Positions 15,820-48,468 of a DNA stretch of 64,000 nt are shown piece after piece. The first letter of the stretch is position 1; each line of letters opens with the position of its first letter. The DNA lies in NCBI RefSeq assembly GCF_055900595.2, contig NZ_CM148325.1, one strand, 5' to 3'. The notes under the pieces are model-generated. The model was not told where the DNA came from. It did no database searches and was given only the letters and a program-made list of their open reading frames with translations. Both the position numbers and the translations under genes were made by a program.

Positions 15820-15996
15820 TGTGATATCGGTCACATAAATATAGGGGGTAGAGAGGTAATTGACGTGATGTGCATCACAAAATACTTGTGTAAAAAAGCA
15901 ACAAGACGGCGATTTTCGCTAAAAATGGCATTTAAATGTGAGTAATGTCACATTTTTGTTTTGTTGGTTTGTTGAATCTTTGTGATCTGAATCACA
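15820..15996. promoter_or_regulatory. mtl promoter region with several CRP-type palindromes
   Basis: tgtgatatcggtcaca (15820..15835) and tgtgatctgaatcaca (15981..15996) both fit TGTGA-N6-TCACA; gtgatgtgcatcac (15865..15878) is a further perfect palindrome. Confidence 0.65.
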
Positions 15997-45293: not shown

Positions 45294-47324
45294 TTACTGT
45301 TGCCCCGCCCAGACGACCAGCACTTTATCGTCGTCATGCTCACGAACAAAGCCGTAGCCCTGCTTCAGCGAAAGTGTCGTTTGTTTGCCCGCGCCAATTG
45401 CGGGATGGCGGGCGCGGAACTGGCTGATTTTCTGCCAGTGCGCGACGCTGGCGGCAGATTTACCGCTAACATCCTGCCAGTTCATATCCGAACGCGTGCC
45501 TTGCAGTGGATCCGAACCGGTGGGGCCGAACGGACGCGAGGATTCATCACCATAAAAGATTTGTACTGCGCCTGGCGCTAATAACAATAACTCTGCTGCT
45601 TTGTCGCCCCCTTCACGGAACAGGCGGGTATCATGCGACGAGAGGTAGCTCAACACGTTGAAATCCTGCAATTTCTCTGCCATTTGCTGCCAGGTCGTAT
45701 CCATCTGCGCCAGACAATCGACCGCTTTCGCCGCCTGCTCCTGATAATCGAAATTGATCATCGCATCGAAGCCGTGGTGATAGTAGTCACTTTGCATCAC
45801 GCCGTGGCCCCAGGCTTCACCGATCATCCAGAAAGGTTTGTCATCTAATGCTTTGTCGGGATTCGCTTTTTTCCATTCGACAAGCGCGGCGCTGGCTTCG
45901 GTTTTCAGTTGCTGCCAGGCGGGCAACTCAACATGCTTGGCGGTATCGACCCGAAAACCATCAATTCCGTAGTCACGGACCCACTGGCTTAACCAATGGG
46001 TTAAGTAATCTCGAGGGGTAAAGCCGTCAATGGCTTTAGCGTGGGTATCCGTTTTGTTGTTATAGAACACTGGCAGGCCAGAAGCGGTCGTTGATTCGGT
46101 TTTGATATCCGGTAAAAAGGCCAGCGACATGGTGAGATCGTCAAATCCAGGATTGTCGTAGTCGCCGATATCCGTTCTGATCCAGTTTTTTCCCCACCAT
46201 TTATCCCAGCCTGTTTTGTCGCTGAAATTAATGTAATCGTTAAAGCTATGCCAGGTTTGCCCGGCGGCGGGCTTCCAGTCGCTCCAACGGTCACCTAACG
46301 TTTTTTTCACTTCGTCACCAGAAAGATATAACGCGCCAAACTGATACTCCTGCATATCCGCCAGTGTGGCATAGCCGGTGTGGTTCATCACGACATCAAA
46401 GAGAATACGAATACCGCGCTGATGCGCGCTATCAACCAGCGTCCGTAGATCGGCTTCGCTGCCCATATTGGCATCAAGATTCGTCCAGTCCTGTGTGTAA
46501 TAACCGTGGTAGGCATAATGCGGGAAATCGCCTTTTGTACCGCCGCCGACCCAGCCGTGAATTTGCTCAAATGGGGCACTTATCCATAAAGCATTGACGC
46601 CCAGCTGCTGGAGGTAATCCAGTTTGTTGGTCAGGCCGCGTAAATCGCCGCCGTGAAAAGTGCCAATTTCTGCCATATCGTCTTTATGACGTCCGTAACT
46701 CTGGTCATTACTGGGATCGCCGTTTTCGAAACGATCTGTCAGCACAAAGTAAACCGTAGCGTTATGCCAGTCGAAAGGGGCGGATGTGTCAGTTTCTGCC
46801 CGTTCCAGCAGGAGTAAACCGTTGCTGGTGGCAGCGGGTTGTAACGTTATTTGACCGTTCTTCACTATCGCAATTTGCTGGCTGTAATAATCCCGGACTG
46901 CGGCTCCCTCCGGAAAAGTGGCGCTGACATCCAGTGTGAGCGGTAATCCATCCCATTTCGGGCATTCACGGACCAGGCTTGCTACCGGTTCGACGGCGTT
47001 CTGGATGGAAATCATCAATGTTGGTGTACCGGAGCGGGTGTCTAGTTGCAGCGTATATTCGCCGTCCCTGAACAATCGCCATTGAGGTGGCGTGTTGCTA
47101 CAAGGTTGCAGGGAAAGCATCTGATTGAGTTTTATCGCATCCGCAGGCTGCCAGCACTGTTGGTCAAAATTTAGCGTTAGTGGACGCGTACCTTTGGGCA
47201 ACTGCGCGTGGCTGACAAATGTTCCCGTTCCCTGTTCGCTAAAGGCAGGGAACCCCGGAGAAGTCCAGCTGGCGGCAACGGCGAAGCCAGGAAGGAGTGT
47301 CAGAAAACAGGCGGCGAGTTTCAT
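45294..47324 (-). CDS. malS: Periplasmic alpha-amylase
   Basis: 676-aa ORF with signal peptide and GH13 motifs. Confidence 0.93.
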   Translation of the reverse strand: MKLAACFLTLLPGFAVAASWTSPGFPAFSEQGTGTFVSHAQLPKGTRPLTLNFDQQCWQPADAIKLNQMLSLQPCSNTPPQWRLFRDGEYTLQLDTRSGTPTLMISIQNAVEPVASLVRECPKWDGLPLTLDVSATFPEGAAVRDYYSQQIAIVKNGQITLQPAATSNGLLLLERAETDTSAPFDWHNATVYFVLTDRFENGDPSNDQSYGRHKDDMAEIGTFHGGDLRGLTNKLDYLQQLGVNALWISAPFEQIHGWVGGGTKGDFPHYAYHGYYTQDWTNLDANMGSEADLRTLVDSAHQRGIRILFDVVMNHTGYATLADMQEYQFGALYLSGDEVKKTLGDRWSDWKPAAGQTWHSFNDYINFSDKTGWDKWWGKNWIRTDIGDYDNPGFDDLTMSLAFLPDIKTESTTASGLPVFYNNKTDTHAKAIDGFTPRDYLTHWLSQWVRDYGIDGFRVDTAKHVELPAWQQLKTEASAALVEWKKANPDKALDDKPFWMIGEAWGHGVMQSDYYHHGFDAMINFDYQEQAAKAVDCLAQMDTTWQQMAEKLQDFNVLSYLSSHDTRLFREGGDKAAELLLLAPGAVQIFYGDESSRPFGPTGSDPLQGTRSDMNWQDVSGKSAASVAHWQKISQFRARHPAIGAGKQTTLSLKQGYGFVREHDDDKVLVVWAGQQ

Positions 47325-47385
47325 GGCGGATGAGTCCTTATTGCTGCGATTTCAGACAGTTTGCCAGCGATAAGCCAGACAAAAC

Positions 47386-47415
47386 TCATCCCTGAGCGGT
47401 AAGTCCACAGGATGA
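47386..47415. promoter_or_regulatory. Two MalT-box-like hexamers upstream of malS
   Basis: GGATGA on the minus strand at 47386..47391 (about 62 bp upstream of the malS start) and on the plus strand at 47410..47415. Confidence 0.4.
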
Positions 47416-47643
47416 GAAGCAAGGGTGAGCGATCGCGCGCAAAAAACGGCTGAATTTTGCGATAAACCCCACATTTTCTGCGATTTAGCGCCAATCTGAA
47501 TCGTTAACTCGTGACATAGTTTCAGATTTGGACTATTCCTTGGGGTGCTCTTGACAGCTATTTTTGATATGATTTGAGATTCAACTCTCAAATTTGTGAA
47601 AAATATAAGGTGTTGGAATGATTAAATCCGACCAGGAGACCTG

Positions 47644-48468
47644 ATGATTTTGACTCCCATACGACGATATGGGGCGATGATTCTTATGTTACTCACTCTG
47701 GTGTTTTCGAGTGAGGTGTTAGCGAAGACGCACACAACAACAGCGAGTCAAAAGTCCCACTTAATTAAAGCTAGTAATAAACAGGTAAGCAGTAAACAAG
47801 AGTATTCTCGCAATAGTGCAAAGAGTAGTTCACTTCCTGATTTGCGAAAATACCCTTCCGGAACACCAAGGAAAAAAGCGTTTCTCCGGACCGTAATGCC
47901 TTACATTACCAGCCAAAATGCGGCCATTACTGCGGAACGTAACTGGCTCATTTCAAAACAGTATCAGGGCCAATGGTCACCTGCTGAGCGTGCGCGTCTG
48001 AAAGACATCGCCAAACGCTACAAGGTGAAGTGGTCTGGTAATACGCGAAAAATCCCGTGGAATACCTTGCTTGAACGCGTAGACATTATCCCTACCAGTA
48101 TGGTAGCGACGATGGCTGCAGCAGAAAGCGGTTGGGGAACGTCGAAGCTGGCGCGCAACAACAACAATCTGTTCGGCATGAAATGCATGAAAGGACGTTG
48201 TACTAATGCGCCGGGTAAAGTGAAGGGGTACTCACAGTTTAGTTCTGTCAAAGAATCGGTGAGCGCCTATGTCACTAACCTGAATACTCACCCTGCTTAC
48301 TCTTCGTTCCGTAAATCGCGTGCACAACTGCGTAAAGCGGATCAGGAAGTGACTGCCACAGCGATGATTCACAAGCTGAAGGGCTACTCGACCAAAGGGA
48401 AGAGTTATAACAACTACCTGTTCGCAATGTACCAGGATAACCAACGGTTAATCGCGGCGCATATGTAA
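47644..48468 (+). CDS. bax: Bax protein, putative glucosaminidase-domain protein
   Basis: 274-aa ORF recognised as Bax. Confidence 0.85.
   Translation: MILTPIRRYGAMILMLLTLVFSSEVLAKTHTTTASQKSHLIKASNKQVSSKQEYSRNSAKSSSLPDLRKYPSGTPRKKAFLRTVMPYITSQNAAITAERNWLISKQYQGQWSPAERARLKDIAKRYKVKWSGNTRKIPWNTLLERVDIIPTSMVATMAAAESGWGTSKLARNNNNLFGMKCMKGRCTNAPGKVKGYSQFSSVKESVSAYVTNLNTHPAYSSFRKSRAQLRKADQEVTATAMIHKLKGYSTKGKSYNNYLFAMYQDNQRLIAAHM

What the first reader, a model, noticed from the sequence alone, without database searches (positions are those of the whole stretch)
47386..47415. Inverted pair of MalT-box-like hexamers upstream of malS
GGATGA occurs at 47386..47391 in the malS direction and at 47410..47415 on the opposite strand, within about 100 bp of the malS start codon. 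This is consistent with malS belonging to the MalT regulon.
Basis: partly seen in the sequence, partly recalled or inferred. Interest (0 to 1): 0.25.

Follow-up and report, generated by a model that had tools for sequence, protein, structure and literature searches.

The report
Known MalT activator sites at malS promoter
The two short motifs are real and are two of the three binding sites through which the maltose activator MalT switches on the E. coli amylase gene malS, an arrangement that is textbook and therefore ordinary.

Summary
The window is E. coli chromosome. malS lies on the minus strand with its ATG at 47324, divergent from baxL/bax.

**Observation.** GGATGA is present exactly where stated: 47391..47386 in the malS direction and 47410..47415 on the opposite strand.

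**Chance.** The pair alone proves little, because 16% of shuffled windows contain such an inverted pair.

**What it is.** The pair is part of a three-box array:
- TCACCC(47428..47423)-N7-TCATCC(47415..47410)-N18-GGATGA(47391..47386)-N22-CAAACT(47363..47358).
- The classical MalT-dependent malP promoter has almost the same geometry (N7/N17/N22, with an identical CTGGCAAACT).
- All five K-12 mal promoters share box-N22-NANNNT.

**Conservation.** Of 81 malS upstream regions from many Enterobacteriaceae genera, 68 match the full pattern.
- The N7 and N22 spacers are invariant.
- The box bases are near-invariant and the spacers are unconserved.
- Boxes switch freely between T and G at the degenerate position of the GGA(T/G)GA consensus.

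**Reading.** The working unit is a proximal box over the -35 region plus an upstream direct-repeat pair. It is not an inverted pair.

**Limits.** MalT control of malS is established in the literature. I could not retrieve the 1992 paper that characterised malS and, by my recollection, its promoter. The start site (about 47351) is inferred.

**Verdict.** Already known; low interest.

The parts
47386..47391 (-). Promoter-proximal MalT box GGATGA (extended GGGATGAG, 47385..47392). It reads in the malS direction. Inferred position is -40..-35, centre about -37.5.
   Evidence: Exact match. It lies 22 nt upstream of the -10-like CAAACT, the same spacing as in malPp, malEp, malKp and malZp. It is GGATGA or GGAGGA in all 68 loci that match the full pattern, and the N22 spacer is invariant. 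G90 G91 A92 G94 A95 are invariant in alignment A2.
47410..47415 (+). Middle MalT box (GGATGA on the plus strand, TCATCC in the malS direction). It is the promoter-proximal member of the upstream direct repeat. Inferred centre about -61.5.
   Evidence: Exact match. An 18-nt spacer separates it from the proximal box (17 nt in malPp). In orthologues it is TCCTCC in 42, TCATCC in 24 and TCACCC in 2. T66 C67 C70 C71 are invariant in A2.
47423..47428 (+). Distal MalT box, degenerate (GGGTGA on the plus strand, TCACCC in the malS direction). It forms a 13-bp-period direct repeat with the middle box. Inferred centre about -74.5.
   Evidence: An N7 spacer to the middle box is invariant in 68 of 68 matching loci, and malPp has the same N7. 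In orthologues it is TCACCC in 40, TCATCC in 18, TCAGCC in 6, TCCCCC in 3 and TCCTCC in 1. C52 T53 C54 C57 C58 are invariant in A2.
47358..47363 (-). -10-like hexamer CAAACT, within CTGGCAAACT, which is identical to the malPp sequence.
   Evidence: In orthologues it is CAAACT in 33, CACACT in 26, CAAAAT in 6 and other in 3, always 22 nt from the proximal box. C118 A119 A121 T123 are invariant in A2. The generic sigma-70 scan finds no -35/-10 promoter here, as expected for an activator-dependent promoter that lacks a -35 hexamer.
47350..47352 (-). Inferred transcription start, about 47351 (MG1655 coordinate 3737470, 27-nt leader), in a conserved A-run.
   Evidence: This is inference only: 7 nt downstream of the -10-like hexamer, in the conserved AAAA block. 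It was not mapped here.
47458..47473 (-). CRP-like site TGTGGGGTTTATCGCA. It matches the consensus at 8 of 10 half-site bases and is centred about -114.5 from the inferred start.
   Evidence: it is a 2-mismatch match, and such matches are not rare (31 observed against 26 expected). The TATCGCA half-site is conserved in many genera. malS is listed among known CRP targets recovered by genomic SELEX (PMC3105977). Assigning that record to this exact site is my inference.
45294..47324 (-). malS coding sequence (periplasmic alpha-amylase, 676 aa), the regulated gene. Its Shine-Dalgarno AAGGA is at 47339..47335.

Best explanation
The two hexamers are two of the three MalT-binding boxes of the sigma-70, activator-dependent malS promoter of E. 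coli.

The box in the malS direction (47391..47386) replaces the -35 element. It lies 22 nt upstream of a weak -10 (CAAACT).

The opposite-strand box (47410..47415) and a degenerate box 13 bp further upstream (47423..47428) form the direct-repeat pair typical of mal promoters.

From established knowledge of MalT: maltotriose- and ATP-bound MalT oligomerises, binds the three boxes cooperatively and recruits RNA polymerase. Transcription then starts near 47351 and makes the periplasmic amylase MalS when maltodextrins are available. A conserved CRP-like site upstream probably adds catabolite control.

Shown here: the boxes, their geometry, its identity with other mal promoters, and their selective conservation. 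Inferred: the start site, the centre positions (-37.5, -61.5, -74.5), the CRP assignment, and actual MalT binding.
For: - The sequence is E. coli malS-bax intergenic DNA.
- The geometry is TCACCC-N7-TCATCC-N18-GGATGA-N22-CAAACT, against malPp TCATCC-N7-TCCTCC-N17-GGATGA-N22-CAAACT.
- In each of malP, malE, malK, malZ and malS, the pattern (G/T)GA(T/G)GA-N22-NANNNT matches exactly once in the upstream region searched.
- 68 of 81 orthologous upstream regions match the whole pattern, with N7 and N22 invariant. Nine more keep the proximal box and the N22 geometry.
- Information content peaks on the boxes and the -10, and is near zero in the spacers.
- Boxes alternate between T and G at the consensus-degenerate position. 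This indicates selection for MalT recognition rather than simple lack of divergence.
- The three-box pattern occurs in 0 of 500 shuffles.
- The consensus GGA(T/G)GA / GGGGA(T/G)GAGG, with the box overlapping the -35 region, is quoted in PMC7567727.
- MalT binds cooperatively to MalT boxes (PMC4381067).
- malS expression follows malT genotype (PMC9645810; PMC2763269).
Against: - No experimental start site or footprint for malS could be retrieved. Schneider 1992 is not held, and two TSS data sets had no entry.
- The distal box departs from the core consensus at position 3 (GGGTGA).
- The exact-hexamer pair is not statistically unusual on its own.
- The flanks match the extended 10-mer only in part (8 of 10 for the proximal box).
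- The CRP-like site is a common-quality match.
Confidence: 0.9

Rival explanations
1. The hexamers are chance occurrences with no regulatory role. MalT control of malS would then be exerted elsewhere or indirectly.
For: GGATGA is not enriched in the window (34 against 29.5). An inverted pair within 30 bp arises in 16% of shuffles. A third exact copy at 47328..47333 does look like chance, because it is absent from 61 of 62 other orthologues.
Against: Position, spacing and box identity are conserved across many genera while the spacers are not. The geometry matches four other mal promoters. The composite pattern occurs in 0 of 500 shuffles.
Confidence: 0.03
2. The inverted repeat TCATCC...GGATGA is a palindromic operator for a dimeric regulator, or a DNA or RNA hairpin, rather than separate MalT sites.
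For: In this strain the arms form a 7-bp inverted repeat (CTCATCC / GGATGAG) with a 16-nt gap. In Actinoplanes the MalT motif is a true inverted repeat, TCATCC-5nt-GGATGA (PMC7567727).
Against: Across orthologues the two arms do not covary. They are identical in 36 of 67 unique sequences, against 31 expected if independent. The spacer between them is 17, 18 or 8 nt. The middle box instead keeps an invariant 7-nt spacer to the distal box. The region lies upstream of the inferred start, so it is not transcribed from malSp. No Rfam family matches.
Confidence: 0.03
3. The boxes regulate the divergent baxL-bax unit rather than, or as well as, malS.
For: The 293-bp intergenic region is shared. The malE/malK region shows that MalT arrays can serve divergent promoters.
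Against: The proximal box is locked at 22 nt to a -10-like hexamer oriented toward malS. The boxes lie more than 200 bp from baxL (47618). None of the papers I retrieved names bax as MalT-regulated.
Confidence: 0.04

Closest known systems
malPp, the promoter of malPQ in E. coli K-12 (classical MalT-dependent promoter)
   Same: Both have three boxes in the same orientations: two upstream in direct repeat, antiparallel to one proximal box. Both have the N7 and N22 spacers and an identical CTGGCAAACT -10 region.
   Different: The middle-to-proximal spacer is 18 nt in malS and 17 nt in malPp. The distal box is GGGTGA in malS and GGATGA in malPp. The CRP-like site lies further upstream in malS, about 40 bp from the distal box.
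malKp/malEp divergent control region and malZp (the other E. coli MalT promoters)
   Same: All have a proximal (G/T)GA(T/G)GA box 22 nt from an NANNNT -10, with TC(A/C)TCC boxes upstream.
   Different: malKp carries overlapping box registers 3 bp apart (TCATCCTCC...TCCTCCCCC). The register that gives an 18-nt spacer corresponds to the malS arrangement. The link to activator repositioning is from my memory of Richet et al. 1991 and was not checked here. E. coli malS has a single register. Klebsiella malS has an overlapping TCATCCTCC.
Published malS promoter description (Schneider, Freundlieb, Tapio and Boos 1992, J Biol Chem 267:5148; curated in RegulonDB/EcoCyc)
   Same: It concerns the same gene. 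The title states MalT dependence, and it is cited for this in PMC10223318.
   Different: I could not read it. Whether its mapped start and annotated boxes coincide with 47351 and 47386..47428 rests on my recollection and on the analogy with malPp.
Actinoplanes MalT motif TCATCC-5nt-GGATGA (PMC7567727)
   Same: It uses the same hexamers in inverted orientation, overlapping the -35 region.
   Different: Its spacer is 5 nt, it is a true palindrome, and it regulates non-maltose genes. In E. coli malS the inverted arms are 18 nt apart and evolve independently.

Membership tests
MalT-dependent promoter of the enterobacterial maltose regulon | Core hexamer 5'-GGA(T/G)GA-3' is present (consensus as quoted in PMC7567727). 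| tested here: met
   There are exact GGATGA copies at 47391..47386 (-) and 47410..47415 (+). The third box, GGGTGA, has one mismatch.
MalT-dependent promoter of the enterobacterial maltose regulon | A promoter-proximal box overlaps the -35 region and reads in the direction of transcription. | tested here: met
   The box-N22-(-10) geometry is identical to malPp, malEp, malKp and malZp and invariant in 68 of 68 matching orthologues. The position relative to +1 is inferred, not mapped.
MalT-dependent promoter of the enterobacterial maltose regulon | Two further boxes lie upstream in direct repeat (the Vidal-Ingigliardi 1991 motif), antiparallel to the proximal box. | tested here: met
   The array is TCACCC-N7-TCATCC with a 13-bp period, the same as malPp TCATCC-N7-TCCTCC. 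The N7 spacer is invariant in orthologues. The definition of the motif is taken from that paper's title and from my memory of its content.
MalT-dependent promoter of the enterobacterial maltose regulon | Extended 10-mer GGGGA(T/G)GAGG, with G flanks on both sides. | tested here: inconclusive
   The proximal site aGGGATGAGt matches 8 of 10. In orthologues the 3' flank GAGT is conserved and the 5' flank is not. The flanks of the middle and distal boxes match less well.
MalT-dependent promoter of the enterobacterial maltose regulon | Boxes are under purifying selection consistent with MalT specificity. | tested here: met
   The boxes carry close to 2 bits of information and the spacers close to 0. 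All invariant columns fall in the boxes, the -10, the Shine-Dalgarno sequence, the ATG and the CRP-like site. T/G alternation occurs only at the degenerate position.
MalT-dependent promoter of the enterobacterial maltose regulon | Transcription requires MalT together with maltotriose and ATP. | not testable with these tools
   Literature only. malS is down-regulated with the mal operons in lines of the long-term evolution experiment, where malT was a frequent mutational target (PMC9645810). It is up-regulated with the mal regulon in evolved isolates (PMC2763269). 'Regulated by the MalT protein' appears in PMC10223318.
MalT-dependent promoter of the enterobacterial maltose regulon | MalT physically occupies the boxes (footprint or ChIP). 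| not testable with these tools
   No footprint data for malS could be retrieved.
CRP co-activated promoter | A CRP site TGTGA-N6-TCACA lies upstream and is bound by cAMP-CRP. | tested here: inconclusive
   The site at 47458..47473 has 2 mismatches, and matches of that quality are as common as chance. It is nevertheless conserved, and malS is listed as a known CRP target found by genomic SELEX (PMC3105977).

The most novel reading that the evidence does not exclude
Nothing about the E. coli site itself looks new. The most novel reading left open comes from the orthologues and has two parts.

First, in nine loci (Kluyvera, Trabulsiella, Pseudocitrobacter and an unnamed Enterobacteriaceae genome) the upstream box pair sits 8 nt from the proximal box instead of 17 or 18 nt. 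That is about one helical turn closer. It would be a natural variant showing that the MalT oligomer needs helical phasing rather than a fixed distance.

Second, a block TTTTTT-GCGCG-N-GATCAC immediately upstream of the distal box is conserved across genera. It may be an undescribed additional cis element of malSp.
Probability: 0.25. Interest if true: 0.3.

Novelty: already known. Interest (0 to 1): 0.1.

Why it matters
It matters little beyond annotation. The finding correctly flags part of the cis-regulatory array of a long-known member of the maltose regulon. The useful outcome is a precise three-box map of malSp in this window (47386..47428, with the -10 at 47358..47363). It also shows that an exact-hexamer scan misses the degenerate distal box and picks up one non-conserved decoy (47328..47333). 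The cross-genus comparison gives a compact rule for recognising MalT promoters: box-N7-box-N17/18 (or N8)-box-N22-CAnAnT.

Tried and rejected
- **Original mapping paper.** Schneider et al. 1992 is not held under PubMed id or DOI. Boos and Shuman 1998 (PMC98911) and Richet and Raibaud 1989 (PMC400900) are not held either.
- **Full-text searches.** Searches for malS with MalT box, promoter, malSp or malS-5'UTR returned no description of the malS promoter.
- **Genome-wide start-site data.**
  - Kim 2012 and Ettwiller 2016 supplements have no entry near malS.
  - Thomason 2015 is not held.
  - Conway 2014 supplements are not held.
- **Generic sigma-70 and terminator scan.** It found nothing in 47250..47700. 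That is expected for a promoter without a -35 hexamer, so it is uninformative.
- **Rfam scan of the intergenic region.** It gave only a meaningless sub-threshold snoRNA hit.
- **Hairpin or palindrome idea.** Rejected, because the arms do not covary and the spacer length varies.
- **A fourth MalT box.** I read the sequence one 13-bp period upstream of the distal box (47441..47436, TGCGCG). It does not resemble a box.
- **Third exact GGATGA (47328..47333).** Rejected as a site, because it is confined to Escherichia.

Full report
**Identity of the region.**
- The 501 bases around the finding match 5,423 of 5,426 complete E. coli genomes, all on chromosomes, and the best hits are 100% identical. 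The annotation under the match is malS (alpha-amylase) and bax.
- In the window malS is the 676-aa ORF 47324..45294 on the minus strand. bax is 47644..48468 on the plus strand.
- The intergenic sequence aligns to MG1655 without indels and with four substitutions. None of them falls in the motifs discussed below.
- Window position w therefore corresponds to MG1655 position 3737497 + (47324 - w).

**The observation.**
- GGATGA is on the minus strand at 47391..47386 and on the plus strand at 47410..47415, as reported. A third exact copy lies at 47328..47333 (plus strand), between the Shine-Dalgarno sequence and the ATG.
- The hexamer is not enriched in the window: 34 copies against 29.5 expected.
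- In 500 dinucleotide-preserving shuffles, an opposite-strand pair within 30 bp turned up in 16% of windows. The pair by itself is weak evidence.
- Three copies within 90 bp occurred in 0.6% of shuffles.

**What the pair belongs to.**
- Read in the malS direction, the sequence is gatcgc-TCACCC-ttgcttc-TCATCC-tgtggacttaccgctcag-GGATGA-gttttgtctggcttatcgctgg-CAAACT-gtctgaaatcgc.
- I fetched the four other MalT-controlled promoter regions of K-12: malP, malE, malK and malZ.
- The malP region reads TCATCC-N7-TCCTCC-N17-GGATGA-N22-CAAACT, with the same CTGGCAAACT as malS.
- The pattern (G/T)GA(T/G)GA-N22-NANNNT occurs exactly once upstream of each of the five genes.
- malS therefore has the standard layout. 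A proximal box reads toward the gene and takes the place of a -35 hexamer. Two boxes further upstream, of opposite orientation, repeat with a 13-bp period.
The farther member (47428..47423, TCACCC, which is GGGTGA on the plus strand) has one mismatch, so an exact scan cannot see it.
- The three-box pattern occurs once in the window, at this place, and in none of 500 shuffles.
- The generic sigma-70 scan finds no promoter here. This fits an activator-dependent promoter with a weak -10 and no -35.

**Conservation.**
- A scan of one genome per species returned 80 MalS loci. They come from Escherichia, Citrobacter, Salmonella, Enterobacter, Klebsiella, Raoultella, Kluyvera, Kosakonia, Cedecea, Buttiauxella and other genera.
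- Of 81 upstream regions, including the window, 68 match TC[ACG][CTG]CC-N7-TC[AC][TC]CC-N(5-22)-GGA[TG]GA-N(20-24)-CA[ACG]A[ACT][TG].
- In all 68 the first spacer is 7 nt and the last is 22 nt. The middle spacer is 17 nt in 35, 18 nt in 24 and 8 nt in 9.
- Nine of the 13 non-matching loci still keep the proximal box and the N22 geometry, with a weaker middle box or a variant -10. At least two of the remaining four were mis-sliced by my script, because their ATG is not at position 2001.
- Anchored information-content profiles show close to 2 bits on the boxes and the -10, and close to 0 in the spacers.
- In a 19-genus alignment the invariant columns are confined to the three boxes, the -10, one Shine-Dalgarno G, the ATG and two columns of the CRP-like site.
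- The proximal box is GGATGA in 39 loci and GGAGGA in 29. The middle box is TCCTCC in 42 and TCATCC in 24.
- That alternation sits exactly at the degenerate position of the published consensus 5'-GGA(T/G)GA-3', extended 5'-GGGGA(T/G)GAGG-3', which overlaps the -35 region (quoted in PMC7567727).
- This is the signature of selection for MalT recognition. It is not simply a lack of divergence.

**Rivals.**
- Hairpin or palindromic operator. The middle and proximal boxes are the same variant in 36 of 67 unique sequences, against 31 expected if independent. Their spacing also varies, whereas the spacing of the middle box to the distal box never does.
- Chance. This is excluded by the conservation.
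- Control of bax instead of malS. This is unlikely, because the array is locked to a -10 that faces malS and lies more than 200 bp from baxL.
- The copy at 47328..47333. It is found in only one of 62 other orthologues with an ATG at the expected place. I treat it as a decoy.

**Mechanism.**
- Established knowledge of MalT, as summarised in PMC4381067 and PMC10427625: maltotriose and ATP drive MalT into oligomers. These bind the MalT boxes cooperatively and recruit RNA polymerase.
- Applied here, this gives MalT on 47386..47428 and RNA polymerase on CAAACT (47363..47358).
- The start would be about 7 nt downstream, in a conserved A-run, near 47351 (MG1655 3737470). That leaves a 27-nt leader.
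- The boxes would then be centred near -37.5, -61.5 and -74.5. The near edge of the proximal box would lie at -35, which agrees with the -34.5 to -35.5 quoted from Boos and Shuman in PMC7567727.
- These positions are inferred by analogy. They were not mapped here.
- A CRP-like site, TGTGGGGTTTATCGCA (47473..47458), is conserved in many genera. malS is listed among known CRP targets recovered by genomic SELEX (PMC3105977). By sequence alone the site is no better than chance.

**Literature.**
- Regulon membership is stated in accessible papers. MalT regulates malS, and malS falls with the other mal operons in the long-term evolution lines, where malT was a frequent mutational target (PMC9645810).
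- malS rises with malEFG and malK-lamB-malM in evolved isolates (PMC2763269).
- 'Regulated by the MalT protein', citing Freundlieb 1986 and Schneider 1992, appears in PMC10223318.
- The paper that characterised malS, and by my recollection its promoter (Schneider et al. 1992), is not in the library. Two start-site data sets had no entry for malS.
The probability that the mapped sites differ is low.

**Verdict.**
- The feature is already known, and interest is low.
- The only mildly new points are comparative. One is the 8-nt spacer variant, about one helical turn shorter, in Kluyvera, Trabulsiella and Pseudocitrobacter. The other is a conserved T6-GCGCG-N-GATCAC block next to the distal box.

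Noticed in passing
window 47328..47333 (+): A third exact GGATGA (TCATCC in the malS direction) lies between the malS Shine-Dalgarno sequence and the ATG. It is present in Escherichia only, in 1 of 62 other orthologues, so it is probably a chance copy and not a MalT site.
   Followed up: yes
window 47429..47446 (read on the - strand): A block TTTTTT-GCGCGCGATCGC (cross-genus consensus tttTtTGcgCg.gATCaC) lies immediately upstream of the distal MalT box. It is conserved across genera although it is not a MalT box. Its function is unexplained. It could be a bend or UP-like tract, or an extra protein site.
   Followed up: partly
L034, L035, L040, L044, L053, L058, L061, L074, L079 (about 1900..1960 in each locus): In Kluyvera, Trabulsiella, Pseudocitrobacter and one unnamed Enterobacteriaceae genome, the spacer between the middle and proximal MalT boxes is 8 nt instead of 17 or 18 nt. 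That is about one helical turn shorter. The N7 and N22 spacers are unchanged.
   Followed up: partly
window 47618..47644 (+): An 8-codon mini-ORF (ATGATTAAATCCGACCAGGAGACCTGA) has a stop codon that overlaps the bax ATG. It corresponds to the annotated baxL 'putative translational regulatory protein' of MG1655.
   Followed up: partly
window 15820..15996 (+): There is a cluster of four CRP-consensus sites within 180 bp, three of them perfect TGTGA-N6-TCACA. It lies next to yibI and is presumably the multi-CRP mtlA promoter region.
   Followed up: partly
window 47575..47590 (+): A second CRP-like or palindromic sequence, TGAGATTCAACTCTCA, lies on the bax side of the intergenic region, just upstream of baxL.
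   Followed up: no
L029, L045, L059 (Klebsiella malS upstream, about 1905..1915): The Klebsiella malS promoters carry an overlapping TCATCCTCC at the middle box. This gives two box registers 3 bp apart, like the overlapping registers in E. coli malKp.
   Followed up: no
literature (PMC8265627, citing Zhang et al. 2017): In Salmonella Typhi a 'malS-5'UTR' RNA is reported to act in trans on hisG. That would imply transcription through this intergenic region from further upstream in Salmonella. It was not examined here.
   Followed up: no
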